Source of the DNA: Ruditapes philippinarum
Taxonomy: Eukaryota
Length of the DNA: 64,000 nucleotides
NCBI RefSeq assembly: GCF_026571515.1
Contig: NW_026859735.1
Location: forward strand, 62,001-126,000
Reading direction: 5' to 3'
Shown: piece by piece, positions 12,301 through 50,500 of the stretch
How the letters are laid out: the number at the start of each line of letters is the position of its first letter
How positions within the stretch are numbered: the stretch's first letter is position 1
Program-made: the position numbers and the translations under genes
Notes under the pieces: model-generated
What the model saw: the letters and a program-made list of their open reading frames with translations, nothing else
What the model was told of the DNA's origin: nothing
Database searches by the model: none

Positions 12301-14503
12301 GTCTACAGTATGCGCTTCACTGACCATTCTGAATAAAACTAAATGATGCAAATGTTTCGCTTAGCATTCAACAACTCCGAAAGTATCAAAAACAGGCAAT
12401 TTCCAACAATAACTCTGTTTCGAAATCATGCAAATGAATAAGCAATCTTTAAAAAAAAATTAAGCTTGAACAAAATTTGTCAGTTCTAGAGGCCATTTCA
12501 CTTTTTGACAGCGCAACTTTATGGTAGTAGCTTTATATTGAAACCCATATGATAGAGGGATTTTATTAGTATTCATATTATGAAAGTTCTCGTTAATTAT
12601 AGGGCAAAAGGTTGTCAACGTTAGCAAATTATTCACTATTCAAAGTTCAAAAAAATATTTTTTCCATAGGTTGCAGTGACACCATCGCAAACTGTGCCGC
12701 TTACGACCCGTCCATTTGTACCAGCACCGACTACAAACAATGGGCATCGCAGAACTGTGCTGGCACATGCCATTTGTGCTGTAAGTAATTAATCAATAAG
12801 GTGTACACATGGAAGATTCTCAAAGTTTGGATGTTGCTTTTCGTCATGATCGGATTTATGTATGCAAAGAGAATAAAATGAAGCAAAAAACGTATCATAA
12901 CAAATTTTCCGTATTGAAACAGTGTATTTTGTTTAAATAAAACATCATTTAGCTGCGGAAAATTCTGTTTTTAATTTTAGCACTTCTATCTAACAAATCT
13001 AGAAATCCTTGCACATGTGTTCCTATTTTTATAGATAAAAAATTATCGGACCGAACTTGTTTTATTACAGCAAGTCAAACTTCCGGAGGTTCAATGACTG
13101 GTACCGTTACTGGAACTGGCGGTGGTGGTGTTATCACAGGAACAGGAACCATGACTGGAACCGGAACTGGAACTGGTGGCACCATGACAGGATCAGGTTC
13201 CGGTAAGCAATATTTTGTTATTTATTCCATGTTTTATTTCTAAGTACTTTAAACTTTATATTGCGTGCGTCCGTTCACGAGTACTGAAATATTTTTAAAA
13301 TTAGGCGGGCTTAAAATACTTTGTTCAATGAAATGTATTAATTTAATAACAATTTCTTTGACGAATGGAAATGCAAGTAAACTTCGTCATTTTGATTGAC
13401 TAATGAATACTAGGCTAAACGATGAATGCCAAGTATTGAATACGGATACAATTTCGTATTTCTTCGAAATTACAGTATTTTACCAGGAATCTTATGGATA
13501 CATTACATTATATGTAATTGTTTATCCTTACTTAGGCTGTGTTTATGCCGGACATCTGTATACACAAGGTCAATCTTGGAAGGACGGTTGTAAATTCAGA
13601 TGCCAGTGTGTAGAAGGAGCAACCGGAAAATACCAATGCACACAACTGTAAGCCTTTTCTTAGGATTTATAAGTCACGACAGTATTGGAGCAGTATCTCT
13701 GGACGCTTGCAGAAATCATGATCACAAAATAGAAAAATATAGCTTTTTCGCCGATTCTTACACTTTTCATTCATTACTGTTTAAAAATATGTGTGAACAG
13801 ATGCATTAGACGTCTTAAACAGAATATCGGCAGGTAAAAAAGGGGAGATTTAAACATTTAACCTTGTCCGGTTTATACCGGAATACGGTATTTAGAGTTT
13901 TGCTCCAACACTTTTTAGTCTTTTTAACATTAATTATTTCCTTCAATATTGAAGATAATCATAGCAATTCTGTGATGACTGGTGAGTTTTCATCTGGAAA
14001 GAAGAAGTTCGTTATTGAAAAAACAGAAACATATAACCCTAACCCTAACCCGAGAAAGGAGAAAAACAATTATCTAGCATGAGAAAATTTTCAAAGCCTT
14101 ACATTTTTGGGGGTGACAATGAGTACATTTAACCTCTGCAGAGCAATGCCATTTAGGAGAAAATAATCTAGTTGTTGCTGAAATGTGTTCCTCTACAGAA
14201 TGTTAATTTCAATGGGAAACCTAACTTGGGAAAAATTAATACTGTGCACAGTGTTGTATAGGGATGGTTGGTCGGTCTACAAAACGCTGCTTTACAAAGG
14301 TTACGTGTGTATAAGGTCTATAAAGCCTAATCTCGTTTTTTTGTACACTTGTTGAATATGTTGATATATTTTGCAGGTGTGTACAATGGCAGCTTCCACA
14401 ACAGTGTCACATGAACCCACCTGCACCAGGCAAATGTTGCCAGACCCCATCTTGTCCAGCTGGCTTTGACATCAAGTATCCAGTAGGATATACTGAAGAG
14501 TAG
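315..14503 (+). CDS. Multi-ShKT + Gly/Thr/Met-repeat + C-terminal VWC protein, 5'-partial (14 exons: 315-560, 826-939, 1173-1223, 2545-2622, 3177-3290, 6049-6153, 7009-7140, 10589-10666, 10797-10919, 11289-11417, 12670-12780, 13071-13202, 13536-13647, 14377-14503)
   Basis: Every exon is bounded by AG/GT and they join in frame. Five exons encode six-Cys ShKT modules C-x6-C-x7/9-C-x12-C-x3-C-x2-C (e.g. CADKLPDCASYDHSICDQASYHDWVFENCQHWCNKC) and seven encode (GTMTGG)-type linkers. The last two encode a 10-Cys VWC domain (CVYAGHLYTQGQSWKDGCKFRCQC...GKCCQTPSC), with stop TAG at 14501-14503. The start codon and signal peptide lie upstream of the window. The donor of the first exon (560 vs 557) is slightly ambiguous. 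Confidence 0.9.
1230..1600 (-). pseudogene. Possible decayed transposon accessory ORF fragment (SWIM-finger-like, Kolobok/ISL2EU type) in an intron
   Basis: Broken minus-strand frames read ...ILKHFGDIKVSAKG...KYIAADIQA / KLFAIHVKSDKKLSNAGYCTC, resembling the lead-in to a SWIM C-x-C motif. Frameshifted; the rest of the motif is missing. Confidence 0.3.
3409..5319. mobile_element. Non-autonomous foldback DNA transposon with ~650-bp terminal inverted repeats (CCGTA termini, Tc1/pogo-like)
   Basis: 3409-4081 is the reverse complement of 4671-5319 at high identity (ccgtattaccggcg...cagtgatggcagatcactgcag / ...cgccggtaatacgg). Spacer ~590 bp. Right flank TA, left flank CA. No transposase. Confidence 0.85.
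7703..9990. repeat. 32-bp minisatellite (~70 copies), consensus cacttcttacaccctgaacattactcactgag
   Basis: Directly visible tandem array in the intron between ShKT exon 7009-7140 and linker exon 10589-10666. Period 32 (e.g. unit starts at 9131 and 9163). Confidence 0.97.
11975..12152. repeat. ~100-bp-period direct duplication (acacgtgtagtct.tagc.gggcaag.caaa.ccc...ttgcgg...ctttgacttccccgtat), probably a transposon end
   Basis: Two diverged GC-rich copies near 11981-12047 and 12081-12152. Confidence 0.55.
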
Positions 14504-16175: not shown

Positions 16176-16862
16176 TACGAGAAATGATCAAAAAGTTCTC
16201 GGCCTGATATTCTTCTAGCCACTACACTGACATTTACACACGATGCGTCGATACCGATATCTTATTAAAGATTACTGACCGAGCTACACACGGTTTTACA
16301 CAGATTAAGTAACATAAAACACACTTTAGTCAGTAAAGGGGTGTATCATTTAGACTAAATGGAGAAAGTTGAAATTAGAGCCGAAATTAAGTTTTGTAAG
16401 AATGGGATGCCCCCCCCCCTCCCCCAAAGGAAATCCATGAAGGCTTCATGGATACACTTGGGAAGGAGTCCCCTTCCTATAGCACTGTAAAAAAATAGTT
16501 GCTGAATTTTAGAGGGGCGGAGAGAGCATTGGAGATGATCAGCGGCCTGAGCGGCCACCATGGCAACGATGAAACTGCCGAAGCTGTGCACGATCTGGTC
16601 ATGTGCGACAGAAGGCCAGACCTGCAAAGCATTGCTAGGGAAGTGGGTATAAGCTTTGGTTCAGTTCAGGCAATTCTGATGTCTATGGCACCTCAAAGGT
16701 TTCCGCTAGATTGGGTCCCCAGACAGTTGACTGACGACCAGAAACGGACCGGGGTTGACATTTCAAAACATCTTTTGTCTCGCTACAAGGATGAACCTGA
16801 TTTTATCTACCGGATCGTAACTCAATACGAAACATGGGTCCATCACTTCGATCCAGAATCCA
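16176..16862 (+). mobile_element. Truncated, frameshifted mariner transposon remnant
   Basis: TA followed by a mariner-like TIR (tacgagaaatgatcaaaaagttctcggcctga at 16176). ATG at 16359 gives MEKVEIRAEIKF, then after frameshifts KEIHEGFMDTLGKESPSYSTVKK*, IAREVGISFGSVQAIL (HTH), WVPRQLT (mariner WVPHEL-type motif) and IVTQYETWVHHFDPES (start of the DDD domain, catalytic D altered). 3' half and right TIR are absent. Confidence 0.9.
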
Positions 16863-17284
16863 TACATCTCTAAATGATTTCAGCGAAAATAAGGCAAATT
16901 AAAAGAACCACTGATCTTAAAAATGCTTCCTCTTTCCAGAAATGATAATTTGTAAGAGTTATCAACGTCCCCTACCTAAGGGAAGTTTTACATGAAGCAC
17001 AAACTTGAGGTATGGATCTGGACTTTCAGTGCACAATTTTGATCAATGCTAGGTCTGCATATGCAAGTAACAATAAATTCATTAAAGAAATATAATGAAA
17101 TAACCCCTGTGTATGTGTCAACAGAAATACATTTGTATAGTTATCACTATTTCAAAGTCAAAAAATGAGACAAATACAAAATGGATTAAACTGGGTATAT
17201 TTTCGTGTCCAGTCCTCAATCAAGTTATGTGGGCAATTCACCAAAGCATTCTTTTTGCATGGACTTGACTTGGCATCATACCCT

Positions 17285-24400: not shown

Positions 24401-25964
24401 TTGAACATCCATTAAGAAAACTTGCCCAAAACTATACATTTGTTTAACTAAATTCTGGCAAAGTCTATCACTTTAAGTAAGGTTTAAAATTTCACAGTAT
24501 GACAAATAACAATTAGCTACTTTAAACATGAACATGTGACCATCTCTGTAACAAGAACAAACTATGTCATTAGATGACAACAACACGGTTCACACAGCAG
24601 CTCTCCCATTCAGTATGTTTCATTCCTGAAAGACTATTTTCATGTGGTTGCACTAAATAGCATTGTAAGAACACAAAATTTCATTTGATACATGACAATC
24701 ATCTACTTTTGTCTTGCACAAGCTTCTATGAATATTGACTCGTGATTTCAATTTGAATTTGGGTGACAAGCATTCCTCACTTTTGAGATTAAGTCATGTG
24801 ATATACTAAGACACGTATTACATTCTTGCAAAAGGTTTATGCAATGTTAACACCACCTTAATTTAATTAAACAAGCTATCTTTATCAAACCTTGCATCTC
24901 AGAAAAATCACATACAAGTAACGGGGCACTCAGAATTAGGGCCCCGAATTCAACTTCCTTAAGAATGCCACACCTGGTCAAGCTTTTAAGTTCAAAGAAA
25001 GGTACAGAGTCAAATAGTAATTACCATGTATATGATGGCTATATGAAGTTTACTGTGCAAGACAAAAATCGACTACCTCTTAACAAAGAAAAACAAAAAG
25101 ACTATAACACACTCTGCTTAATAAGGAACAAAAGCTTTGAAACAGTCAGTACTTAGTACATGACAAATTCATTCCCACAAATACTATGAATTCAACAAAA
25201 CAGCTAAAACAAAACCCACAAACAGATGTGCCTATTCTATCTAATAAGGGTACAACAACAACAAATTCTAAAATGTAATAAATTGTAAGTATTAACTACC
25301 CATGCTGAATTGAATTCATAGTATTTGTTCTCTATTTACACGCATTTCCAGGGCTCACAATACTGCAATATTAAGCCCATTCCAGTCATATAACTTTCCT
25401 AATTCATTTTGGCTCTTATTAAAATACTTGCCAGTAATAAACAGAATGTGACCCCTGGAATTTTAAGTACCTGAACTGAAACTGTATTATCATGAATAAT
25501 TAACCTTTTCAACGCTATATATCTTAAATGGAATTTTGCATCTTTCAAATCTGGACCAAACCATTTATCATTTTCATAGAAAAGTTCAAAATATTCACTG
25601 ACTGGATAGCAAACAATGCAGACCATGATCAGATGTTGTGGATGTTCAGGCTGACCTTGGTCTGCACTGGTTGCATGGCTCTGACAGCAACCTTAAGGTT
25701 GAAAGTGACAAGTTAAATAGGTAAATCAGTAAATTCAAGACTAGAAAACTGATTTAAAAAGATTTTTCTTACAAATTACAGGTTTCAAGCATTTAAAACA
25801 CACACTTTGTCTACATCTGAAATATCTATGACCGAGCAATACCCATTTGACCAACTTGGAAGACTAGCATCTAACATTATACATAGAGGTAAAATCAAAA
25901 GAGTATGATTTTTTTTTCTAGTTTCAGTTCAGTTACCTCTTTCACCCATGCATGAACACCTTTA

Positions 25965-28900
25965 TTAGCTCCACCCCTGCTGCTGTCTGTTGGAAGCACT
26001 CCAACCAGCGTAACTCCCAGGCTGAGGCTCAGTCGCATGATGTCCACCCCATCCCCAGGCTGTACTGGTCTGTGGTGCAGCGTAAACATGACCTGCAGTT
26101 TGAGGAACCCCTGCATCACCCGAGGCTACAGGCTGATGATGTTGCGGAGGCGGGCCAGGGGGAGGAGTCATATGTGCCCAGTTACCACCCTGACCCTGCA
26201 GCATGGCTTGTGCAGCTGCCATCATCGCAGAATTGAATAGGTTAATACCAACAGCATTCATATCCTGTGGTGGCATGTTTGGAGGGAAGCCCATTGGTTT
26301 TGCAATCTGGTTATTTTTGTGTGGCTGCCAAGTCCCCTGATGATTCACCAACTGTGTATAGTTACCTCCCCTTTGTTGAACAGGGCCATTTTGAACTCCT
26401 GGCTGAACCTTCTTGTCTCCAAATCGGTCTGTTCCTTTTGGTGCCGCATAACTCACATGGACACTTACACCTTTTACTATATGATCTTCCCCACAAAGAC
26501 TGTGAGCAACTTCAGGGTCCGAAAATGTGACAAACGCAAATGATCGGAATGGTTTCGGGATGAAAACGTCTACCACCTCGCCATACTGACAGAAATAATT
26601 CCTGAGATCGTCTGATGTGATATCTTCTGTACATCTAGCAATGAACACTTTACGGTTGATCATTTGGTGTGCACCTTCCTAAAATGACATTTCAAAATCA
26701 TGTTCTTGTAATTACCCAACCAAATATTGAATTTTCTATGATTCTCATATCTTATAAGGTGGTCAATCTAATAAATATTGCCTTCATATATATATATATA
26801 TATATCAGCTGACATTAGTCGTCATTACAATATATACTGTATGAGGCGGACCGGGAACAATGCAGTGGTTGGACTATGCACTGGTAAATTAAATAATTAA
26901 ATGTGACTTACTGTCATGATAAGGAATTTCACCTCTGTTTTATGATATAACATCAGTGCACCAAATATTATTAAAAGCCATTACTTCGTTCAAAGTTATT
27001 ATCTGGAAACTAGATTGAAAGACAAACCGACAAGTTTGCTGGCTAAATGACACCCCCCCCCCCCCAACAACTTTGTGGGGGGTATAATATTAAAAATATT
27101 ATAAAAACATTTTTCTATTTACAATGCCATCTGTTAACTTATATAACTGAAATGCCCCAAGCACATTCTTCATCAGAACCATGACTTAACAGCAGCTAGT
27201 TGATAAATTTAACTGACTGAACAACAGAAAGATGTTCCTATAGATAGCCTCTGCTATGGACCATGCATTTTAAACTGAACTGAAATTGAAAATTATTGGG
27301 TAAATTCCATTTTCAATTGTTGGAATATGATTTCAGAATTTCCCCTATTTCTGATTTATCTTGCAATTATTTTCCCTTCAGCAAGCAACAGGTTGTTTTG
27401 AAAACTGAAAAAGATCACTGCCTAGGAAACAATATCAGCCATAAAAGCCATTAAGATGCAACTCTCAAGAGATGCTTGTCTATGCCTACTTTCAGGAAAA
27501 AGACATTAAAAACTCAGATTGTAAGCTGGTGTACACAAAAAGTTCTAATTCCATGTTACTGTATTTTAGAATTGCAATACAATTTCATTAAATTCAAGTA
27601 CAGACAGTACAGTAACATAAGATTCTCCATGGTTTTGCTAAGGACTTGGATAATAGTTCAAGGCTCGACTTCTGTTTGTAATTCCAAGACGTGAGTGACC
27701 AAAAAATTTCAAACACATAATTATATAATTTATAAAAATGGATATTACCAAAAATCTTTTTGACACAAACTTACATTTGAGTTTGGAATGGTAACATCGC
27801 ACCATCTACCATCAATGTTGTGTCGCTGGGACATACATTTCATTTGATCTTCATACTTATGGAAACGTATAAACCCGTAGCCTTTCGATTGGCTTGTTTT
27901 TTGATCTCGTTTCACCTGAAATTGACAAATTACAAAAGAAAAATTAATATCAACTCTACATACTGTGTGCTAAAAGTAAACACCTAGTTTTCATAAGATA
28001 TGAGGTAGTAGTATTTTGTCAGTAGGAACTGTACAGTAATAAGTCTCGGTAAGTGACCAACTCCTATAACACTGAAGATATGTGTCAAGTTTCAACGATA
28101 GATTTTGAAATTTTACAGGTACAAAAGTGTAATAATATACCGTATTGTTTCTATTTATAGTCCCCCTTCTAATTAGCGCCCCCTGGGTGAAAAATGAAAA
28201 AAAAATTCTTACCTGACTTGAAAATTTTAATATCCGAAGTGTATTTAAAAAAAATAAACAGAAAAAAACTAACTGTTGTAACTTCCAAGTAACATTCAAC
28301 TTCCAGTTTGAATGCATTCATGTACGTTTTCTTAGAAGTGCAACCTTCTATTGTGTATTGATTAAATCACTGAATCAAGTTTTTTTACACACAGGTAAAC
28401 TGATGGGTGTTAGTACTAATTTAGGAAAAATCAATACTTAACAAAGTTTATCTTGGTCAGCAGACTACCGTATTGTCTACAATAATTTTGTGCTGCTTAT
28501 TTATCGTACGTGAACAAGGGGTTTATAGGACGAAAATAGTTGGGAGATTTTTTAGATATTTTTAAACATAAAATTAATTTTCATTTTATGCAAATGTGCT
28601 TCTAATTAACGCCCCCCGTTTCCGTTTTTGCAACGCCCCGGGGGCGATAAATGGAAACAATACGGTAATTCCATAGAAATCCATAGAAAGTTGCATTAAA
28701 AACCTAACAGTTGCAGAAACAATTTCAGTAAAGTAAGAAACCTTATTCAGGCTGAATAGTCAAACTAAGAACTAGTAACTTTCCACTTTTATTAGCCTTA
28801 AAGCTTAAGGTGCTTCTTTGTGCACTATTTCAGACAAACTGACAACATCTTAATACACCCAAAAACTTTCCTTTAGATAAACCGATAAACCTGATTTAGT

Positions 28901-31900
28901 GTTCCACTCAACAGCTGTGAAACATAGGGAATTTTCAATTAGAAATCTTGACCAATGGGACTGCACCCCACTTTTCCTTTAACATTTTCAAATGGTCATT
29001 TTATATTGAACATTTCGTACCTGTACAAGCAGGAGTTCACCAAACTTTGAGAAGTAATTTCTTAGGTCTTCCTCAGAACTCTTCCAAGGTAGCCCTAACA
29101 CGATGAGGTCACTACATTTCTTTTCACTGAGACTAGTCTTTAAGCTTATATCTTCGCCTACAGCTCCTTTCTTCTTGTCTGTAAATAAATCCGTGATAAA
29201 ATAAAACATTAACAAAATATGTGACTATTTACCAAACTTGTATACATATGTTCATCAGTTCAATTTCTTTGCCCCATGTGCAAAGGCATGTTTTTTGATA
29301 GAACTATCATGGATGTGAATTGTAATAGAGAAAACAGCCTGTGTGACACACAACAAACCGAAAAACCAGAGAACACTATCAAAACACCAGATTATCTTTA
29401 TCAGTGTTTTTTTTCACTTTTGGGGGAAGGGGGTCGGTGCCCTTTGGAAGGGAAATTTTAGTTGTTTACTTATTTTACGTTTTTTTTTTGCGATGGAAAA
29501 GGGGAGCAACTCTTGCAACACAAGTTTAAAATATGTCTCTTTTTCTTAATATACGGATCTAAAATATCGATGCGTCACATGTTAAACTTGTTGGGACGCC
29601 GGGAGTAGCTCCCCTTACCTACCAGAAAACGATTTGTAAACAACCTTGCTTAACAGTAACTCTTACAGGCATGAAATAAAACATTTTTCGGCAGTTAGTT
29701 GCAAAAAAATATTTATTGCAGGCAGATTAGGGCTGCCATATAGGGGGAAATAACAGTATTTCTATTATTTGTGTAACCAGATAAAACATGTTTCATTTTT
29801 TCTTGCATACTGTAATGCTATTTTTATTAGAAATTGTTTATCCAGCAAAAACCATACATTTGAATCAAGCAAGGAAAAATATCCGATTCAGTTATTGCTG
29901 GTTATAAATAAAATTCTTTACAAAATTAAGGGAAACCTTTACCTTTAATTCTTACCTTCAGCCTGACCAAATTGTAACTTTAAAAGCTTTTGACATATTT
30001 AGTGTTAGTCAGAACTTAATTATAGACAAATTATGGTAAGTTCAAACATAAACATGTTTGTTTACACCATCGAAGTACATGGTATTCAATCTATAATATT
30101 ACATCCAGGCTGTATGATTAATTAAGCAAACTATATCAATAAAATTTAACAGACTTTTGCCATTTTACTCATTGCAAAAAACAGTCTAAATTCTAATGAA
30201 AATATTATATATATATAACAGTTTTCAATGCAGTGATTTGATTACTATTTTAACCACAAAATCAAAGGGCAAATACACATGTGCGTATGCGCAAAACATT
30301 TCACATGGAGTTTAGCATCTGCTGTCACCTTAGTCCTAATTATAAGACCTATACGTAACCTATTTCATATTTATCAGTTATTAATCTGATATTTTACATT
30401 TTTCATGTTACGTTAGGTCTTAACAGATCACTGCAAAAACATGTAGCAAACAATTTGACATTAGACATCGATTTAGATCTAATGCATTTAAACAATTAAG
30501 ACAGCGTGTATTTACATTAATTTTGACCTATTTATAAACAACGCTAAAAAATAAATACCTTTTAACAAAATAATTAAACTGTCACATCCTCTCATTTATA
30601 ATTAAATTCCTTGTACAGCCGATAAACAAATGGCCGCCATACAGTGCTCGAAATCTTATTGGCTAATTCAAATGCAAGCGTTTAAATGAGTCAGAAGTTT
30701 TTAACAGAATATTTTTTTAACGAAATAATTGCTCATGCACCGTCAGGGTGTTCGAATATATTTTTTCGTTCAAAAATGTGGAATCAATCTGTAAAGCACT
30801 TTACTTAACCAGTATGGCCGATTGGCAAAACTAAATTGATGTTTTTATTTTATTTTTAATTGATAAGTTATTAAGTACATTGTTTCAGAGTTTTTGTTAA
30901 TGATTGAGCATGAAATTGAAAGAAAAGAAGATAAGCTTTTGAATAAAGCTTGAAAGGCAAGATAAAAGACATCTTTTGTTTTTTTTAAAAATGCTATGCA
31001 TTTATGAGCAATAACTATTAGACATCAGACTTGACCTACATAAAACTATAACAAGCCTGTAACGTGTAATATATTGGACTACTGTCACCTTAGCTGGCAA
31101 TTTAAGTCAAAGTCCATTCTACATGTATAAAGTAAAACCGGGGAGAAGTGCCTGCACTGCCACTATGGCGATGTTTGTTTGTTTTGGGTTTTACATCACA
31201 TCGACACAGTATAGGTCATATCGCGACGTTCCAGCTTTACTGGTGGAGGAAGACCTCAGGGTGCCCTTCCGTGCATTATTTCAGGCATGAACGGGCACCT
31301 GAGTAGAACCACCGACGTTCCGTAAGCTAGCTTGATAGCTTCCTCACATGAAAGAATCCAAAGTCCCTGTCGGGATTCGAACCCACAGCGGTGAGGGGCA
31401 AGTGGTTTGCTATGGCGATGTGTGTGTTAAAATAAGTGCAGGCTTCGACAGGTCCAAACGCCCGCTTGCATTTGCAAGTGAATATTATAGTCAGGCGAGA
31501 ACAATTGTAAGATTCCTGATCCAAATTAAATCTTTTACTTTATTTTTGTATTAAATAAATTGGCTAGACTTTAGAAATCTCTCCGCAGCTATTTTTCACA
31601 TTATAATTTTACCCAGTATTATTTCTTCAATATATATGTTCAGTGATTTTTTTTCCAATTTTCAAAACAACCTGTGGCTTTCTGAAGGGGAAAATATAGC
31701 GCGATAAATCAGAAAAGGGGGAAATCAAATTCCAACAACTGAGAGTGGAATAGTTACCCACACATTATATAAAATTTTTAATTTCAATTCAATTTATCAT
31801 GCATGGTACATAGCAGAGGCTTTAGGGATTCTAGCTGATATAATAAGTCAGATGCTGTTAAGTAATGGTTCTGGTGAAGTGCACAGGGCATAACAGGGGA

Positions 31901-32441
31901 AAATATTAGCTTTTTTAGGGGAAAATATACCTATATTTAGCTAGGGGAAACAGCCTTTATTCGGCTGTAAAATACAGGGAAAAAAATCACTGATGTTTCT
32001 CTACAAAATCACTCAATTACTTCTAGGGATATGGTTAGAGTAAGTGTTTAAGGGTAAGGGTTAGGTTTAGAAGCTAAGGGTTTGAAAAATGAAACATGGA
32101 CTTTTACTGCGAAGTGCTCCAATAAATTTAATGTTCTAATTATACAATGTGCATTATCATTTATCAACCTCTATTAATTAGTTGCAAAGTCATTGATGTA
32201 TACCTTTTGGAAAAACAACGAGGTATGTATGATTTTTCCAGCCGTTGTCTGGTGGGTGGAGCTTGTTATCACTTAGGCGTATCCCTCGGAAATTTCCAGT
32301 TTGTGGGTTTCTGTACTTCAATCCACAGGCGTTGGGAAACTGTCCGGATATTGTGCTAAGTAGAAGAGTACCATCCTCTTCACTTGGGATTTCAACAGCC
32401 TCTTCATTTTCGTCGTCTGTTACCTGAATATATTGAGGCAT
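25965..32441 (-). CDS. TARDBP: TAR DNA-binding protein 43 (TDP-43) orthologue, 416 aa; exons 32441-32204, 29178-29021, 27915-27775, 26678-25965
   Basis: N-terminal domain [46 protein letters not shown]; RRM1 ([30 protein letters not shown]); RRM2 ([36 protein letters not shown]); Q/G/P-rich tail with [12 protein letters not shown]. Exon lengths 238+158+141+714 = 1251 nt, all GT-AG and in frame. Confidence 0.97.
27140..27420 (-). mobile_element. Partial inverted copy of the 31641-31993 MITE in TARDBP intron 3
   Basis: Reverse complement reads cagtgatctttttcagttttcaaaacaacctgttgcttgctgaagggaaaat...gataaatcagaaataggggaaa, matching 31641 onward. Confidence 0.7.
28140..28665. mobile_element. Tc1/pogo-type MITE with TA target duplication in TARDBP intron 2
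   Basis: ta|ccgtattgtttctatttat ... ataaatggaaacaatacgg|ta. Subterminal ttctaatta(g/a)cgcccc motifs at both ends. Confidence 0.85.
31175..31409 (-). mobile_element. 5'-truncated tRNA-derived SINE (MESC/Meta-like core) with 12-bp TSD
   Basis: B-box ggttcgaatcc, core tcatgtgaggaagctatcaagctagcttacggaacgtcggtggttctactcaggtgcc, (aaac)n tail. TSD ctatggcgatgt at 31163-31174 and 31410-31421. Confidence 0.88.
31641..31993. mobile_element. MITE with cagtgattttttt TIRs and apparent 5-bp TSD atgtt in TARDBP intron 1
   Basis: atgtt|cagtgatttttttt ... aaaaaaaatcactg|atgtt. Confidence 0.75.
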
Positions 32442-38543: not shown

Positions 38544-41500
38544 TTAGTATCTTGGCCTAGAAGCCTGTTGTGGGGTCCTTGCACCTCCAATCTGACCCCT
38601 CTGTTGCTGTGCACCAAAACCTCCCTGTTGGGGTCCCCTAGGTGCAGCCTGACCTTGCATTGGGGATTGCTGTTGAAACTGACCATACTGAGATCCACCG
38701 TAACCAGCCTGAGCACCCTGGCTCCCTTGCTGTCCCTGCTGTCCTGGATAACCACCTGGCTGGCGGGCACCTTGTTGATTATTTGGTTGATAGGAACTTG
38801 ACCTAGGGGATGTTGACTGGGTCACAGTTGATGGCAAACTTTTCAACAGACTTGGTCCACTCTGAATCAGATTATCTAATGCCTTCTGAACATTTGGGTT
38901 ATCAAAGTTAATCAATGGATTAGATCCTTGCTGGTTCTGTTGAGGTCTGGCTGGGGTACCACCTCCCGAACCACCATATACGGACTGGGCTTGGATGGCT
39001 GCTGACTGGCTCGCACTCGGTACCGAGGATCCTGATCCATTTAGTATGTTGAGAATTTTGTTTTGAAGTTCTTGTTGCTGTTGCTGTAGGAAGGCAGAGG
39101 TACTGTCCCCTGCACTGGCACTTGGGGCTTGAACCCCAGTGGGAGCTGGTCTTGGTGGGCCAGCACCTACAACAAAGAAAAAGTTAGTATGAATTTTATG
39201 CTCAATCATTTTTACAAATCGTAACTCAATCTATTTTATTGTTAGACATGATCACCTTATGATTTGGCCAGATCATATGGTTTTAATCTTATATCATAAA
39301 CACCATGTCTTTTAAAACATTTTCAAAATGCAAATCTTTTCAAAATCACTGAAGTTACTTTAAAACCACTCAAGGATTTTCAAAATATATGAAAAACTAT
39401 CTTTAGCCAATTACTTTTCCTGGGACTTAGACAGAATTGGAACAATGTAGGCTAAAACAGGGAGGCAAATATTGAGAGTAAAAGGATTGAATGAAAAGTT
39501 GAAAAAAATTTCTCAAACTATTGTTTACAAAGATATTCTCTAAAAATGCCCGGCAAAGTGTTTCAATCTTCAAAATGGCTGTTAGACATATTGCGGAACA
39601 TGACCTTTCATGTATATCAGTTTAAACCTATTTATTGAATCTTGACTATGAAACAAATTCAGGCAAATTTTAATAACCTGTTCCAAATGAGATTCATAGA
39701 ACAAAACCTGTTGTAATGCGAAACATGGCCATGATCTCCTGGTTTCTGATTGGTTTTAACACCTATTGTAACAAATTTCTAGAATTACTTCAGCAGTCAG
39801 ATCACCTAACCAACTGTGCTGGATAACTAACCAGTAATTATCGGATTTCTTTGTAAGCGACCAACTTTTAATCTAAAAACAAATCTAAATAAAGCTTTGA
39901 CATAAAGGCACACAACTTTACCACAAGGTCAAAGCTTACCCTACAAGCATAACCACTAGTAACTACATTTCTTTCAGTGTTACACTGATAGGCATTCAAT
40001 ATATTTTGATCCTCCAAATTATTAAAAATAGTGCTTATTTTCCAAAACAGGTAGAGTGGTTGCACCATGAAGGAAGAACACGTTATGTATTTTATATAAC
40101 TGAAGTAATTTAATATACTGTTTAAGCTGTGACTGTCAAACATGGTCAAAACATCTTCACACAAAAGCACACATGAAATTATGTGAATTATGCATGACTG
40201 GGAGGTGAACAAATGTGTTTTACATAAAACAGAAAGTTTCAAACAAAATACTGTTTTATTGGCTCTAATTCTAAATGACAAAACCTGGTATTCTATAAAC
40301 TCATACATTTAAAAAATAATACTTGGAGTAATTGAATAAAAGAATGATGTTTTCAACAAGGTCCAAACCAACAGCAAGACAGCCCTATACAAGGGTTATT
40401 TTAACCAATCGGGTCCTTCCCTTTAAGTTGGGGAAATTAGCAAAGTATTTTTTTGCAAAAAGAGAAGAAAATTGAATTTCAACAGAAAACTGCCTATTTT
40501 TACGAATTTTCTATGGAGAAGACGCCTGCTATAAATGGATTAAAAGCCCAGCTATCATCCAAAACTACTCGCTTTTAAGAAACATCTTATTCATTTTGTA
40601 TATTTGTTCTTATTTTTATTAAGTTTGCTTTGTTAATAAAAAGAGTACAAAAAACTGGGAAATATTTCATTATTGTATTTAAATTAAACTTACTCTCTGC
40701 TGGTGGCCGTATACCCTCATTTATCATCAGTTTTTCCCTACGTTCTTTTAGATAGTCGATAACTTTTCCTAACTCTTCAATTGTAAGCTGGCGATTATCT
40801 GCCAGTAAATTTAAAAGGTACGCAATATCAGCTGACGCTGGTAGGAACGGGGGAGCACTTGGTGCTGGAGTTGCTCCCGGCAATGCGCAGGTGGCGCGGC
40901 TGCCTTCTCACGCTGCGTCTGGATGTACTTCTCAAAACTGGAAGCGATTAGCTTCATGGCATCTTCCAGCGGCATGTTGCGGTGTTCTGCGAGGAGAGGA
41001 AACATACGTCTTTCGATTAAACGGTGGAATGATTGTTTATTTATGACGTTACTACAACATTCAAAATATACGTTAAACTTTTCTGTTTACTCTCACTTGC
41101 AAACAGTGATACTATGTTTATCTAAAAAAAAACTTTAAGCCTATACAATTTTGTTTGAAAGAAATAATAAACTTACCGTTTTAAGTTACATTTTAGCTAG
41201 TTCCAGACATTCAAGACCAAGAAAAAAAAATCCGAAAAATTTTGTATTTATTTATTTCTTTTTACACAAAAATGTTTGATTACTTTACTTTTTATATCTT
41301 TCATGTAAAACAGAATTTGCTTTTTATTTTTTAAATCAAATTAAAATCCCTATATTACTGTACTATCAGAATCAGATGTAAATGAGTTTGTTATTGCTTA
41401 TGTTTATGCCGATGATTTATATTTATTTAGAACATGATATATCAAAAATTTTATTTCATCTAATTGTTATATTTTTCAGCAATCTATTTCCTATACTGTA

Positions 41501-44500
41501 TATCATTTTCAATAAGGAAAATAAAATTCTTTTTTATTTTTAATCATATGCAAGAAGCATATAAAGAACGTGAAGTGAACATTTTAAATAACAAATATGT
41601 CAAAGAAGTGTTATCCTGCTTTATAGACTACTATTCTAGTTTAATGGCTTTTCTTGGGGGTTTTCTTAACTCCGAAAATATTCAGAAATATATTCTAGGA
41701 GGATATTACCAAATAATTTTAATGTGTTAAGTTTGGATGTTTAATACGACTTTGTTGTAAAATGTCGATCGCTGACGAAATATTTGACTATCACAGACTT
41801 CTTACTTGTGTTCGGTTCGGGTTTTTTTTTTCGGAGAGAAATCAGAGAATGTACGTGAACAAAACAGTGACAGACTTATTTAGAGCACTTATACAGTTGA
41901 TTATGAAATACTATGATACTGTACAATGAATGCGGGTCATACCTTTTCTCTCACCTTTATCCCGTGTCCCGATGAAATTGAATTAGAGTTACTGTTCATA
42001 TTATTTTACATGTAGTTTAGTTTGCTCCTTTGTCAGGTTTTTTCATTTAACTCCTATTTTAACAGGTTTTTATGCATTATTTATATACAGAAGGTGATAT
42101 CAATATTTGTTTAAATTTAACTTATATACTGTGCGACTATATCAAAAGTGCATCAAAAACTCAACATCATTTATATGCTACAGGATAAATCTATATATTT
42201 CATTAAATGCATGTCACTTGTACATTATGCATTTTATAAGGAAAAAAAACTTTGTGCAATTTATATATTTCAGGTCGAATTTGGCTTTTTTCAAAATTAC
42301 GCGTCATCTATATTTTGTAGGGTATATAAATAGTTTATAAAACAACTGTGTGTCATTAATATACTTTAGACAATATCAGTTTATTTTTTATCGAACTGTA
42401 GGCTGCATCAACAACTATCTGAGTAATTTATAATGTATCATCAAATGACAATAGTTTATCCAAAACTACGCATCATCTATATACTGTTGGGTATATCAGT
42501 ATTTTATGGGGGCAAAAATGTGCCATTATAGGCACTGAAGGCCACTCAATATATTTTATCAACTGTGCATAATTTATATACTACACACTATATTAAGAGA
42601 TACGCGTTAACTATATTGGCAGTGGCTATATCCAAATCCACCGTGACAACGGCCGAAAGGTCAAAACATAGTCCCTGTATTGTGTTATATGAAGGTATGT
42701 CCTTTTATGTTATTTTTACTCATGATGGTACATCTTGATTTTATAACTTTAAGGTTGCTTTTGATGAGTTATTTGCTTTTTGACAATTTATATCTTGCTG
42801 GGTTTTTAACTGCTTAAAGAAGCCTTTTAAAAGTTTATAAAAAGTAAGAAAAAAAATTTTTTTTATTCAATTTATAATACATGTGAGATTTTAACTTACC
42901 ATTTTTTATTTTTATTTAATCAAAGAACAATATACATAAATATACATTTCTACTAAAATACAATCATTTAAAATCGACATAGTATAAAATATTGCGAAAT
43001 AACCGAGAATAATGTTGAAATATATTTAACATTAAATTTAAACGCATATTATTTGTATCAACAGGTAATGGACCGATCCGGTTCGTAACGCCAAACTGTC
43101 CATTTAAAATATGAAGGATTATAATATAACAATCGTAAAATTCGGCAACTAACGATTTAGGGTCTGGTTCTATGTGAAAGCCGACCTGATTTTATACTTG
43201 TGTCACAGACTGATTACAATCGCCACAAGCGTTAAAAAAAGTCCATACTTTCAACCAGAAATTAAGTACTTTTCACAATGATTAAATTAAACATATTTTA
43301 CACCGTGTATTAAATAGTTAAATACATCATTCCGCATCAGTTTTTACAAAAAGCGAATACTTGAAATAACTAAACAGCTGTCTCCCCTAAAATTAGAAAA
43401 TGAAAACAAAGGAAAAGGTATACTGGTAGTTCATAATATTTGAGATCTACACAACAAGGTCACACAGTGCCAACAAAAGGAACTTTCACGATTTGTTAGG
43501 GTTATATAAATAACCTAATTGGGAATTACAGAGGAGTGGGGACTCTTTAAGGACATTGTACACCTTTTCACATCGATAATTTGGAAATACCTTTATATCT
43601 ATATACTATGTACTTAATATACATCTTCACATTGGCTTATTTAGATTGGGTAGGAAAATTCTTTTAATAGCTTAACACTTAACATTTCATAAAGTTTTTG
43701 TGTTATATCTATTGCATAACAATTTTGTACGGCACAAAGTTTTCTGGAAACACCGGCTTTTCTAAATTTTAAAGGTAAAGAGCTATAATGATGATGACGA
43801 TGATGAATACGATGATGATGTAAATGTATTAGTAATGATGATATGATTTCTTAGAGAAAAGTTAAACAAAAGTAAAAACAAAATGCAGTAAACTATTTGT
43901 TTTTATTCATTTTAAAACAGTTCCCCAACATCGTGCATTCAGAATTTATTCTGTCCCAGGTATTGTTCGAACAAAATGACGCGAACGGTAAAACGTAAGT
44001 TTACATCTTTTTATACGAGTTCAACCAATGAGCATCAAGATTACTCATTCAATTTGAACAGTTTCTTTTTTTATAAGGGTTTGTTTAAAATGGGGGGGGG
44101 GTGTTAATTAGAAATAAAAAATCGTAAAAAAAACTTAAATAAACACCATTGACGTAATCTATTTTTATTATTTTTCGTACCATCTGTTTTTACGGTTTTA
44201 CGGTTTTGTCACAACGCTACCATTTGCAATTATTTGCACGTCTACTTAAAAATCTTAATAAAGGTTTAGTTAGAAAGCTGTTAATTATTTGACAGACATC
44301 TAAACACACAAAGTTTGCAACAAGTCTGCAAATTTGTATCAAACGCTATTGATAGGTCTTTGTCGTTTTATGGACTGTTAGTTGAGAAAAAGGTCATTGA
44401 ACTTTAATGAGAAAATGGCTATAAACTTTCTCCTAACGCAACAACCTACAGTATCTTGGATTATCCATTTTACGCATTTCAACACTATTTATGCAACATA

Positions 44501-47500
44501 TGTAGCGAGCCATATTTACATGAAATGGTTTACCGAATAAACATGTGTTTTATATACAGCTTTCATTTAAACTCAACAATTTCGCAATAAGTTATAAGGA
44601 GACAGCTGCTTAGAAGAAAAACATCGTATCTCTACTTTTGTACCTAAAATTACCCCATTTCCACAACAAAAATTCCTTACCTTGAGGAGTACCATGAAGA
44701 ATGTTCAATGTAAGAGATTTATGAGTCTCATTTTGGGTATTGATTATGATGGCGAATAAAAACTTCTGCCTCGCAGCTTCCTCCACCATATTTGGCACCG
44801 TCAGATCCTCTGGTATGACAATGATGTCAATGATGAGGGCGTGTTGTCGCAGCCTAGCCTCAATAGACTCGGCATATTGTCTGTAATAATCAAGAATATC
44901 CTGCTTTAAATATAGTATTTTTTTTAACATTTTGATTAAATAGTACATATGATATCACATGGATGCCCCCACATTTTACTGATTTTTTTAGTCAGACAAT
45001 GTATGGGCATTAAAATTTCCACTTTAACAAAGGACAGTTTTTAACTGTAAAGCAAGGCAAGCTCATTTCACATATTTAGCCATGGTAAGAATTATTCAAC
45101 TGTAATGTTAGTACCACTTTATAAACATATACAAAGTATCACTTTATAAACATACATTTTACCTGCTCATGTAAAAGTTCAATTCATTTACTTTATATGC
45201 TATTTTTATTTTTATCTATGTTATACAGTGCATGTCCTAACAATCTTGTGGTAACAAAGATTTTGTTTGTTGTTGAGGTGTTACTCAAGGGAGTTAAATC
45301 TATAGTGAAGTTTTACTTTGAGAACGTTGCAGATGTGGGTGTGAAGAGTATTTGCTCTTCAGAAGGCCACCCTACAGTGGTTGCAATGTATCGTAATATA
45401 GAGGATATTTGTTTGTTTTGCATGTAAGATTGAAATATAATTTCACTGAGTGAACACCAGATGCAATATTTTCACGAGTGGCGTAGCCACGAGTGAAAAT
45501 ATAATAGCTGGTGTTCACGAATGAAATATATTTCAATCTTATATGTAAAACAAATAAATTTTCTTTTTATTTCATGCGTTTTAAGTAATTTTAAGTAATT
45601 TTTACTGATTTTGCCGCGTAACGTCGCGCATTCTCCTTCGTGACGTCATCACATCATGACGTCACATCAACAAATTTGAAATATAGTTCTGTTAAATTTC
45701 TCTAATTTTGTTACATTTTTAGCATAATGTATGGTGACATCGACTTTCTTTTCCGAAAGAAGCAAAATTTACGCATGACGGCATTTATTTTTGCCTGTAA
45801 TTCCATTCAGTTTTGATTTTCTTTTCATCCGCATTCAGATATAGTCCGGCTACAGTGAAAATTATATTTTATAAACTTCACTAGTGGTTTATCAGAATAT
45901 AATCATCTGATATATTACAATAAAACACTGGAAAGCATGAAATAAATATATAGTGGTTAATGATTATCAAGTTAAGCTGTAATATTTAAATCTTATCTGT
46001 TAAATTCTGCCCAAATTTATCATAGAATATACGTACGCTAGTTGCTTATTCATACAAATAATCTGAACATCTGCCGGAAGGGACTTTTTTGGCGGTGGTG
46101 GTGGGGGTAGAAAGGGGTCTCTGTAGTAAGGATCTCTGTATGGATCATCATAGGGATCTCGTCTGTATGGGTCACGTCTAAAATTACAATTTTTAAGTAA
46201 AATAACTACATAATATTCATATAATGTTAAATAACTACATTATATTAAGATATTACTCAATTGAAAGACTAACACTTTTTACCTTTTTCAGATCATGTTG
46301 GGTGTGTTGAGTTTAAATTTAGCAGTAACAAAACAGTTTTCCTGTCTTATAAGACTACTCACTTGTAACACTGATTTTCATTGGCTGAGCATAACATCAA
46401 TATAATCTATATACACTGCTTTTTTATCATTTAAATGACATACCTGTAAGGATCGTCCCTGTAAGGGTCTCTGTAGGGGTCGTCAAGTGGGGGTGGTCGT
46501 CTGTATGGGTCAGCATAGTATGGGTCATCCCTGAAACAGGCAACAATTTCCAAAATAAAATCAATTGCAGCTTATCATCTTTAAAAATGAATAACAAATA
46601 TATAGAAAAATAATCGATATTTAAGACCTTTGAGCTTCTGGTTTGACCTTGACCTGTTTGTTAAGAATATTGATGCTGCACGTAAAACCGTACCGTGTTT
46701 CATTCAGCAAAAAATCAGGCAACAAGTTGAATGTTCAAAAGTAATTATCAGCAACCTCAATTTTAATCACAGTTTGTCTTGTCTTTATGTCGACTTTAAG
46801 ACATTTTTTGTCATATCTAGGCAGTCGTTTCCAGCTTTACCTGACAACTAACAAGTAATTATTAATTTGTCAGCAAGTGACCAACAACTTATCCCACATG
46901 ATTTCTGAATACAGGGTGAGGGGCAAATGACCATAAGACGCAATGTCTCAAATCAATTCTTAGGGGGAAATTTATCTTTGCCGAAGGTCCAAACCAGTGT
47001 CCTGTCCCGTTGATTACAAATCCGATGCTCTCTCTACTGAGCAAAGCGGCCAGACTTTTAAACAAAGAGCATAAATATTCTTGCCCAATGTTACAGCAAA
47101 ACCGAGCTATACTAGACACGTGTTAGTAATATACATAGCATATACTTTGGTGCACTTATTTTATTTTAAGCTCAATTTCGTAACAAGTTCTTGCAACTTT
47201 ACTAATCTTCCTGGAACCAGCAAATACTGGTGCCACATGAAGAAACATAGTCCTGACCCGAGCAGGGCTTGAACCCATGATTCTGGGTTTAAAGGCAGAC
47301 ACCTTAACCACTAGGCCACTGCTCCCCTGACTAGTGCAAGTTTTTTACTGTATAACTTTGTTTCAATCTAATCTCTAAGCAACCATTGATTTGGGCAATC
47401 AATTTCTGAGGCCTAGGCATTTTGTAAATAAAGTTTTAAAGATAATGCCTAAAACTAAATCAGACACAGCCACATAAATACACCAATTTAACAAAAAATT

Positions 47501-50500
47501 TAACAAGATTGTGGTGAGATGAAAGACATTGAAAGTGTACATGGTGAGATGAAATCCATTGAAAGTGTACAAAGGATAAAGCAATTAAGCAATAACTACA
47601 GCAAATAAAAGGTACTATGACATACAACATAAAATAATATCTAGCAAGATGTTGCAACATCTTTGTTGGAATCAAAACTATAAATGTGTCCATTGCCTTT
47701 ACATAATTATGCATATTCATAAAGGTTACAAGTTGCAGAACAAAAATCTAATTGAGTTACACAAATAGAAAGACGAGTACATCAGCATCAAATATTTTTT
47801 CAAATATTCTAGCCGAAAACAAAACAACTCAAAACTAGAAACTAGCAGACTATAAATGGCTCTAAAAATATCTTCCCGACAACCACTTTGTCAGAATCAA
47901 CAGTGGCCAATTTAGAGCTCAAGGACAACCTCCCTGCCAAATCTGAGGTTACTACAGCCAGTGCATTGCTAAGTTATGTATTCTACATGCTTCAAATGTG
48001 AAAATGTCAAAATCAATACATTGCGAACAGGACATTCTTTAGCAATTGAGAAGAAAAGCTTTTTTTTTGTCAAGGTCCTGTGACCTTGACCTTTGACCCC
48101 AGTGACCTCAAAATCAATAGGGGTCACCTTATAGTCATGATCAACATCCATGCCAAATATGAAGACTGTGGGTCAAAGGAATCTTAAGTTAATGGTGTGG
48201 ACAAACTTTTTGAAGTCAAAGTCCCTATGACCTTGACCTTTGATTCCAACCTTGGACCTGGTGACCTCAAAGTCAATAGGGGTCATCTACTAATCATGAC
48301 TAACCTCCATGCCAAATATGAAGACTAAGGGTCAGAGGAATCTTAAGTTATTGGGTGGACAAGCTTTTTGAAGTCAAGGCCCCTGTGACCTTGACCTTTG
48401 ACCTAGTGAACTCAAAATCAATAGGGGTCATCTACTAATCATGACTAACCTCCATGCCAAATATGAAGACTAAGGGTGAAAGGAATCTTAAGTTATTGGG
48501 CGGACAAAAAAAAACCGACGGACAGCCGGACGGACAAGCTGATTCCAGTATACCCCCCTTACAACTTTGTTGTGCGGGGGTATAAAAAGAAATAAGAGAA
48601 CTGAATAAATGCTCTCAAAATTTATCATTTACCAACTAACTCAAGTCCCGAGTTATAAAAATTTTGAATCGAGATCAGTCATTAATACCGGCCTCTGATT
48701 GGTTGATTTTGAATACAACATTTGAAATTGACCAATGAAATAATCCCATAAGCAGACTGTTTCCAAAGATCAGCATGATAACAATGAGTCATGCAAGGCT
48801 AATATATCAACACACAGCCTACCTTGGTGGAGCAGGCCCTGCCATATCAACACTGTCCCTAAAATTATAGGGACATTAAAAATACAAATTTTATAATATC
48901 TCGAAATTGTTAAAAACCAATAACCGCCAGTAATTTCAAGAGACCATGACAATGTTATTACATTTTTAAAGGTTTTATTCACAACATTTTTTTATACACA
49001 AAAAATAGGTATTTTGTGCTTATTTTTATTTTCTATCATGAGCATTTTGAATTGTAGTCCTGAACTGCAACATATATGTATTTTTAATTAAGAATTTCAA
49101 CAATATCTGTACCATTTTTAAGAAAGCAAATCATCACATCATGATTTTGGTGTAGTGATCTCTACATAAAAACAAGTAGTGATCAATACATTTGAACATA
49201 GTGATCACTTCATAATGAACAAGTGATGACTAGTGAGCACAATATAATATGAACAAGTTATTGATACATATGAACAAGTAGTGATCACTACATTTGACCA
49301 AGTAGTGATCAATACATATGAGCAAGTGATCAATACATATGAACAAGTTATCAATACATATGAACAAGTGATCAATGCATATCATCAAATGATCAATACA
49401 CATGATCAAACTTAAGAGAAAACTTTTTTTTAAATGACAAACTTTCATGATTTCAGAAAGTACATACCTGGGTGGGGGTTCCCTCCTAGGATAAGGGTCT
49501 CTGAATCTGTCATCATAGGGGTCCCCTCGAACTGGTGATCTGTCCCTACCCCCTGGGGGTGGAGGACCACGGCCATCTCTGCCTGGATATCTATTTAAGA
49601 TTATGCATATGATGTATTTATACACAATATTTAACTAAAATATCTTACATATCTTGAAAACAATCTCTTGAATATTTGGAAAGATTTTTTAACATTTTAG
49701 GCTGTCATATTTAAGTTACAAATAAAAAGAACCTGCAGATCGCAGTTGAAAAAATTCAGAGCACCTGAACAAATTGAACTCAACCCAACTCACTAGCCTC
49801 TTTGCTCAGTTTGTAATGGTGAATTTTTCCTTAACAGCAAAAAGGTCAAGTTCTTGTATAATACTAGAAATTGACATGTTTTCAAACATATAAAGAAAGG
49901 TTAGTTTGCCATAAATGACATACCCGCCTGGTTCCCTATCAAAATCTCTACTGGATCCTGGTCCTCCCCGACCTGCACCTCTGTCTAATGGTGGGCGCGG
50001 TGGACCTCCGGCACGTCTACCTTCTGCTGCCATTTTTACGTCTGTCAAAAATAAAACAAACACACATTTTCGTATGTATATATATTCTTTATCCCTTTTA
50101 ATATATTCCTTCTTACCATGCTTTTGCTTAAGCAATAAGTTAAATGTATGTTGAATTTCTGCTTGTGAACAGGGAACATGCAAATACATATTATAGGGAT
50201 AAGGTTTCAAAATTGTTTTGAGGACGAGTCTTTTTAAACATTTTTTACTATCAAAAGTTCTAATGACTTTTAATCTTCATACTATGAGTTAATAATTAGC
50301 ATCATGAATCTTTGAAAAATATAACTTCATATCAAATTATCAATAGATGTCACAATAAATGACAGTGTAAAAATGAGGGAACAAAAAAACAACAACAAAC
50401 TTGTTTCAATTTTCATGTGTTTATTATTTATAGACAAACAAGAATTGACATCTATCAGCTTTTTTTATTGCAGATGCACAAAAAAAACTGTATTTCTCAT

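What the first reader, a model, noticed from the sequence alone, without database searches (positions are those of the whole stretch)
26178..26243. Vertebrate-type conserved helix retained in an invertebrate TDP-43 low-complexity domain
Seen: [22 protein letters not shown] within an otherwise diverged Q/P/G/H-rich tail that also has spaced Trp motifs (AWGWG, AGWS, terminal QGWS). Established: human residues ~319-334, [16 protein letters not shown], form the transient helix that drives phase separation and lies in the ALS/FTLD amyloid core; fly and nematode orthologues lack an obvious match. Inference: the helix is ancestral to bilaterians, and this 416-aa protein is a natural variant for testing aggregation resistance.
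Basis: partly seen in the sequence, partly recalled or inferred. Interest (0 to 1): 0.7.

Follow-up and report, generated by a model that had tools for sequence, protein, structure and literature searches.

The report
Clam TDP-43 helix lacking gatekeeper proline
One of a clam's three TDP-43 genes keeps the first half of the short segment that makes human TDP-43 self-assemble, a segment we found in most sampled bilaterian animals including flies, but it naturally has serine where humans have a proline reported to prevent clumping, so it would be a ready test of how this ALS protein stays soluble.

Summary
The motif is real: residues 325-346 of an intact, spliced, four-exon, 416-aa TDP-43 gene (minus strand). 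It is the homologue of the human conserved region (CR), z=7.3 against shuffles. It is not a vertebrate-type rarity: the human CR matches 36 of 38 named lophotrochozoan and 32 of 36 named arthropod proteins, and 4 of 6 Drosophila ones. Filarial nematodes keep a degenerate copy, 3 of 4 Caenorhabditis proteins have none, and 0 of 5 cnidarians match. So an origin in the protostome-deuterostome ancestor is supported, and 'absent in flies' is wrong. Only the first half (human 319-330) and Trp334 are kept; the Met-rich second half is replaced. The new point: this gene belongs to an old molluscan duplicate lineage with Ser at human Pro320. In human TDP-43, P320S was reported to precipitate heavily. 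None of 22 gastropod CR copies has this proline. Helicity is only predicted, at low confidence; self-association and aggregation resistance are untested. Verdict: a new variant of a known element that is useful for the helix versus cross-beta debate.

The parts
32204..32441 (-). Exon 1: start codon and TDP-43 N-terminal domain
   Evidence: Pfam TDP-43_N E=1.2e-34; GT donor
29021..29178 (-). Exon 2: basic NLS-like linker and start of RRM1
   Evidence: AG/GT ends; joint to exon 3 in contigs of X5 and X8
27775..27915 (-). Exon 3: rest of RRM1, with Tyr at the human F147 position
25965..26678 (-). Exon 4 coding part: RRM2, 155-aa low-complexity tail and stop
   Evidence: best PDB sequence hit human TDP-43 E=3.2e-38; Foldseek best hit mouse TDP-43 RRM2, rmsd 0.8
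26199..26234 (-). Conserved-region core N328-L339 (= human N319-L330), predicted transient helix
   Evidence: alignment; highest helix-propensity 10-mer of the tail, 0.91 versus human 0.92; only helix in the AlphaFold2 tail, low confidence
26229..26231 (-). Ser329 (TCT), at the position of human Pro320
   Evidence: sequence; alignment column
26178..26180 (-). Trp346 (= human W334), 7 residues after the Leu instead of 4; followed by only 2 bulky residues in 7 (human 5) and a Pro run
26049..26051 (-). Trp389 (= human W385)
   Evidence: 53 of 54 rows
26001..26003 (-). Trp405 (aligned to human F401)
   Evidence: W in 41 of 54 rows
25971..25973 (-). Trp415 (= human W412)
   Evidence: 53 of 54 rows

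Best explanation
This segment is the inherited first half of the TDP-43 conserved region in an old molluscan duplicate gene, and it likely works as in humans, as a short transient helix through which RNA-bound TDP-43 molecules would self-associate. SHOWN: intact spliced gene; homology; a conservation island as strong as RRM2; retention of L330 and the three tail Trp residues; Ser at position 320; replacement of the 335-340 half; membership of a Ser320 paralogue clade spanning bivalves and gastropods (moderate support). INFERRED: the Ala/Met/Gln/Leu core folds transiently into a helix capped by Asn-Ser instead of Asn-Pro; helix-helix contacts plus the spaced aromatics drive condensation on UG-rich RNA; the shorter helix and Gly/Pro flanks make assembly weaker and more fluid than in humans, which offsets loss of the proline.
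For: Human CR versus shuffled tail z=7.3; profile score 47.8 bits versus shuffled maximum 12.2 (close relatives were in the training set). Core identity 0.78 versus 0.22 for the rest of the tail. The core is the top helix-propensity window in the tail and the only helix in the AlphaFold2 tail. The residues reported to matter most in human CR assembly, L330 and W334 (PMC12658102 passages), are kept. Position 320 is P 67, S 24, H 14, Q 3, T 1, A 1 among 110 distinct anchored contexts from 412 tails. In the Aurora-Rose table Ser scores 1.25 at N-cap, so a helix model tolerates the change. On a tree of the folded domains only, all 11 Ser rows form one clade (85/84); 3 changes versus 12.4 for shuffled labels, 0 of 1000 as low.
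Against: The AlphaFold2 helix has pLDDT about 46-52 and covers only 8 residues. Helix propensity follows from an Ala/Met-rich sequence and does not exclude cross-beta. The 335-343 half, said to be needed for the human tetramer model, is missing. Pfam TDP-43_C does not hit the window's tail even at E<=10. Proline compensation is not general: Ser320 copies of Haliotis, Aplysia and Littorina have 4-5 Pro in the core-equivalent span and the Pro320 clam paralogue has 14, against 13 here. The anchoring pattern fixes several core residues by construction. Support for the Ser clade is below the starred level, and kin share labels, so the shuffle test is weak.
Confidence: 0.68

Rival explanations
1. 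The segment works as a labile cross-beta polymer core. Ser at 320 extends backbone hydrogen bonding, and the mollusc proteins either form firmer, functional polymers or are held in check by their flanks.
For: Backbone N-methylation at human 321-329 impairs phase separation, and P320G/S/A precipitate (bioRxiv 10.1101/2021.12.05.471332). Exactly 321-330 is the part conserved here. Arthropod and chiton copies that lost Pro320 mostly have a Pro three residues upstream.
Against: 0 of 22 named gastropod CR copies have Pro320, and their nearest upstream Pro is 10-43 residues away in the six measured. An essential insulator should not be lost twice. Sea-urchin copies have Gln there.
Confidence: 0.17
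2. The segment is kept mainly as a binding site for partner proteins (hnRNP A/B type), with self-association secondary.
For: Human 321-366 binds hnRNP A2, and that peptide competes with fly TBPH for hnRNP A2 (PMC2709582 passages). The fly motif found here would explain that result.
Against: In the same paper, deleting 321-346 alone left splicing inhibition intact. No partner was tested here.
Confidence: 0.13
3. The match is a chance or convergent poly-alanine patch in a low-complexity tail.
For: Short poly-Ala helices are common in RNA-binding-protein tails (PMC9054762 passages).
Against: p=0.0005 against composition-preserving shuffles; same position and same Trp anchors across phyla; 36 of 38 lophotrochozoan proteins.
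Confidence: 0.02

Closest known systems
Human TDP-43 C-terminal conserved region (residues 319-341; PDB 7py2 chain sequence)
   Same: Domain order NTD-RRM1-RRM2-low-complexity tail; N319, A321-A328, L330, W334, W385 and W412 are kept.
   Different: P320 is Ser, A329 is Met, L-to-W spacing is 7 not 4, the Met-rich 335-340 half is replaced, there are 13 Pro versus 2 in the span matching human 282-360, and the Ser-Ser pair before the last Trp motif is absent.
Pfam TDP-43_C (PF20910)
   Same: Already reaches some invertebrates above its cut-off: Mytilus 30.3, Octopus 37.8, Branchiostoma 47.8 bits versus 27.9. An invertebrate CR is therefore implicit in a public database.
   Different: No hit on the window's tail; the Mya orthologue scores only 18.2 bits.
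Mya arenaria TDP-43-like P0003 (orthologue) and the other molluscan Ser320 copies
   Same: 79.8% identical over 411 aligned residues; same Ser320 core; 100/100 clade with the window.
   Different: The bivalve B1 subgroup has a Pro/Gln/His tail; gastropod members are Gly-rich; the B2 copy (G000:C568) has lost the W334 equivalent.
Drosophila TBPH and other arthropod TDP-43
   Same: Carry an N-P-A-hydrophobic-hydrophobic-A-A-A-L...W motif.
   Different: The core is 9 rather than 12 residues, usually keeps Pro320, and is missing from some splice isoforms.

Membership tests
TDP-43/TARDBP family | TDP-43 N-terminal domain | tested here: met
   PF18694 E=1.2e-34, 118 bits versus cut-off 27.1
TDP-43/TARDBP family | Two TDP-43-type RRMs | tested here: met
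   68% and 69% identity to vertebrate-type P0122; best sequence and fold hits are TDP-43 RRM2
TDP-43/TARDBP family | RNA-contact residues W113, F147, F149, R151, F194, F229, F231, D247 (list recalled) | tested here: met
   7 of 8 identical; F147 is Tyr
TDP-43/TARDBP family | Intact, spliced transcript | tested here: met
   no internal stop; two joints in contigs of 2 of 4 laid runs
TDP-43/TARDBP family | UG-rich RNA binding and splicing repression | not testable with these tools
   needs binding or minigene assays
TDP-43 conserved region (human 319-341) | First half 319-330 with L330 | tested here: met
   9 of 12 identical to human
TDP-43 conserved region (human 319-341) | Pro320 | tested here: not met
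   Ser329
TDP-43 conserved region (human 319-341) | W334 | tested here: met
   W346, shifted by 3 residues
TDP-43 conserved region (human 319-341) | Met/Leu-rich second half 335-340 | tested here: not met
   2 bulky residues in 7 versus 5, then prolines
TDP-43 conserved region (human 319-341) | Pfam TDP-43_C above cut-off | tested here: not met
   0 families for the 156-aa tail
TDP-43 conserved region (human 319-341) | Transient helicity | tested here: inconclusive
   predicted only, pLDDT about 50; propensity 0.91
TDP-43 conserved region (human 319-341) | Self-association, phase separation, amyloid formation | not testable with these tools
   needs bench assays

The most novel reading that the evidence does not exclude
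Molluscs have run a natural experiment on the ALS core. A whole TDP-43 paralogue lineage fixed Ser at the 'insulator' Pro320, gastropods lost Pro320 from both paralogues, and these proteins stay soluble because of context changes that can be found and transplanted (loss of F316, a shortened second half, a shifted Trp), or else they use a firmer, functional polymer. Either result would discriminate the helix and cross-beta models of TDP-43 assembly and name natural suppressors of aggregation.
Probability: 0.3. Interest if true: 0.7.

Novelty: new variant of a known kind. Interest (0 to 1): 0.42.

Why it matters
The papers read describe the conserved region as conserved in vertebrates and the fly tail as considerably divergent. 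The element is much older, and fly TDP-43 proteins have their own copy, which could be mutated in situ in fly ALS models. The elegans-like Caenorhabditis proteins sampled lack it, so they are the exception. Natural Ser/His at Pro320 supplies ready-made variants for an open dispute (helix versus labile cross-beta) and for finding sequence context that suppresses precipitation. The motif's mere presence in this clam is ordinary.

Tried and rejected
(1) Four copies of residues 138-180 of exon 4 folded as a complex: no verdict, score 0.01; evidence neither way. (2) No RNA holder listed on record in the run search. Raw-read runs X23 and X24 (4-5% read) gave only sparse exon coverage, mostly repeat-derived reads and no joints, so no expression level and no test of CR-skipping isoforms. 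Exon 1 and intron 1 were not covered by the lay. (3) 'Prolines compensate for Ser320' was rejected as a general rule. (4) 'The three clam genes are recent duplicates' was rejected, p-AU 0.00016. (5) Human CR alone does not detect the nematode motif (0 of 3). The profile detects 2 of 18 at p=0.003 and C. bovis at p=0.01; the two filarial species are close kin and 18 tests were made. (6) Cnidarians: 0 of 5 significant by either test; the Nematostella record has a 20-aa tail and may be truncated. (7) The Atlas did not hold the unnamed protein tried, so two deep unnamed groups stay unplaced. (8) The deep-mutational-scan tables for position 320 were too large to read. (9) The 3' region shows no UG repeat longer than 6 nt. 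(10) The 57-row careful tree did not finish; the quick tree left the C568 group unplaced, and I rely on a 28-row careful tree (26 of the 55 database rows kept, chosen by hand, plus two clam models). (11) PMC9610444 and PMC5014597 were not held. (12) No earlier findings of this scan.

Full report
Observation. The stated peptide is encoded on the minus strand at 26243-26178. It is residues 325-346 of a 416-aa protein from four exons with canonical introns. Exon 1 is a TDP-43 N-terminal domain, and the best sequence and fold matches of exon 4 are TDP-43. Contigs of two runs show the exon 2/3 and 3/4 joints. The one variant listed inside the motif, at 26199, is a synonymous third-position change in the Leu339 codon.

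Organism and copies. The genome has three TDP-43 genes, each with an NTD exon and an RRM2-plus-tail exon. The copy on C14858 is identical in exons 1 and 4 to P0017, which the database names Ruditapes philippinarum, so this is a venerid clam. The three proteins are 52-59% identical and are not recent duplicates (p-AU 0.00016).

Is it more than chance? Human 316-340 scores 52 against the tail, with a shuffled null of 23.0+-4.0. The 12-residue core is 0.78 identical across 53 relatives, against 0.22 for the rest of the tail. W346, W389 and W415 align with human W334, W385 and W412.

How widespread? With the human segment alone as query (not circular), p<=0.01 in 36 of 38 named lophotrochozoan and 32 of 36 named arthropod proteins among the 120 of 301 hits listed, and in 4 of 6 named Drosophila proteins. 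Of the Drosophila misses, one is an isoform of a species whose longer isoform has the motif. Amphioxus, tunicate, lamprey, one of two sea-urchin copies and a rotifer also match at p<=0.005. A 28-sequence profile finds a degenerate copy in Litomosoides and Wuchereria (p=0.003), weakly in C. bovis (p=0.01), and none in C. briggsae, C. nigoni and C. sp. 36; C. elegans and D. melanogaster themselves were not among the named hits I tested. Five named cnidarians gave no significant match. The element therefore dates at least to the protostome-deuterostome ancestor. The 12-residue form occurs in chordates and spiralians, and a 9-residue form in arthropods, sea urchins, a chiton and a tunicate; which is ancestral is unresolved.

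What is different here. Only human 319-330 and W334 are kept. The Trp is three residues further out, the Met-rich 335-340 half is replaced, and the span matching human 282-360 has 13 Pro versus 2. The residue at human Pro320 is Ser. Zhou et al. (bioRxiv 10.1101/2021.12.05.471332; parts 1-3 of 4 read; supplements closed, so their Fig. S3 on P320S/A was not seen) report that P320G, P320S and P320A precipitate profoundly, that P320G is toxic to cells, and that backbone methylation rescues droplets. Natural sequences have S in 24 and H in 14 of 110 distinct contexts. On a tree of the folded domains only, the 11 Ser rows (bivalves and gastropods, including the window and C568) form one clade at 85/84, and His marks the gastropod members of the other clade at 91/85. 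These supports are moderate, and two rows that are not named molluscs (an annelid and an unnamed protein) fall weakly beside the Ser clade, so the duplication date is uncertain; the bivalve-gastropod split is Cambrian (recalled). Of 23 named gastropod proteins, 12 have Ser, 10 His, one has no CR and none has Pro. In the listing, F316 is present in 14 of 17 non-vertebrate Pro320 contexts of the long form and in none of the 34 Ser/His contexts (my count by eye). That rests on about two independent events, so it is a lead only.

Mechanism. Most likely (0.68) the core acts as in human TDP-43, as a transient helix that self-associates. It is the top helix-propensity window (scale from the supplement), it is the only helix in the AlphaFold2 tail though at pLDDT about 50, and it keeps L330 and W334, the residues that matter most in the human alanine scan (PMC12658102, passages). 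Ser is an acceptable helix cap, so loss of Pro320 costs little under this model. Under the cross-beta model (0.17; PMC7682574 passages) the loss needs compensation. Proline-rich flanks could provide it here but not in gastropods. A partner-binding role (0.13) fits the report that the human 321-366 peptide competes with fly TBPH for hnRNP A2 (PMC2709582 passages). Helicity, self-association and aggregation behaviour of the clam protein are all untested.

What is known. Passages of PMC6814767, PMC12658102, PMC10450430 and PMC7682574 use 93 vertebrate homologues, or fish-to-human alignments. PMC2709582 calls the fly tail considerably divergent. Passages of PMC6744496, PMC7831090, PMC10530927 and PMC9054762 gave nothing on an invertebrate CR. 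Ten library searches (listings and abstract starts seen) returned no paper on an invertebrate CR, molluscan TDP-43 paralogues or natural P320S; the only paper holding 'P320S' was the preprint. Most subscription journals and all figures are outside this library, so this is weak evidence of absence. Pfam TDP-43_C already passes its cut-off on Mytilus, Octopus and amphioxus.

Verdict. Observation confirmed; interpretation partly supported. The gene is a member of the TDP-43 family. The motif is a homologous but half-length, Pro320-less variant of the conserved region, common across bilaterians and unremarkable in being present. Its interest lies in the natural Pro320 loss and in correcting the vertebrate-only and absent-in-flies picture. 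Interest 0.42.

Noticed in passing
window 38547-58290, minus strand: Upstream neighbour looks like NCOA5: an exon at 44613-44954 matches PDB 1v95 at E=2.7e-10; an RS-rich, RRM-start exon lies at 57757-58290.
   Followed up: partly
L003:1459-2178 (G000:C568): The third clam paralogue has Ser at both 319 and 320 and no W334 equivalent; orthologues in Mya, Mactra and Mercenaria share this.
   Followed up: partly
P0082 versus P0474; P0027 versus P0004: Annotated isoforms of Drosophila tropicalis and Littorina saxatilis lack the conserved region while sister isoforms have it, like human short TDP-43 isoforms.
   Followed up: no
nematode proteins P0236, P0267, P0245, P0212, P0415-P0435: A nematode-wide conserved island late in the tail (alignment A3) is probably the degenerate CR; it is absent from C. 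briggsae, C. nigoni and C. sp. 36 but present in C. bovis.
   Followed up: partly
P0385, P0392, P0386, P0387: Coral TDP-43 tails share their own Met-rich, helix-like motif near the C-terminus; not significant against the CR.
   Followed up: no
P0226 group: A large set of unnamed marine TDP-43 proteins, nearest to cnidarian records; several examined end in a shared short amphipathic motif.
   Followed up: no
window 29100-29178 and 27880-27890, minus strand: The second basic cluster of the NLS-like linker is reduced relative to the other paralogues, and RNP1 has Tyr for F147, as in the Mya orthologue.
   Followed up: no
window 16499-16870, plus strand: A 124-aa frame resembling a Tc1/mariner transposase fragment (recalled resemblance; Pfam gave no supporting hit).
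   Followed up: partly
window 287-583 and 12953-13240: Simple G/T/A-rich tandem tracts that read as Gly-Thr repeats.
   Followed up: no
window 29400-29700 and 25600-25750: High read depth with many loose ends: dispersed repeats inside intron 1 and the 3' region.
   Followed up: no
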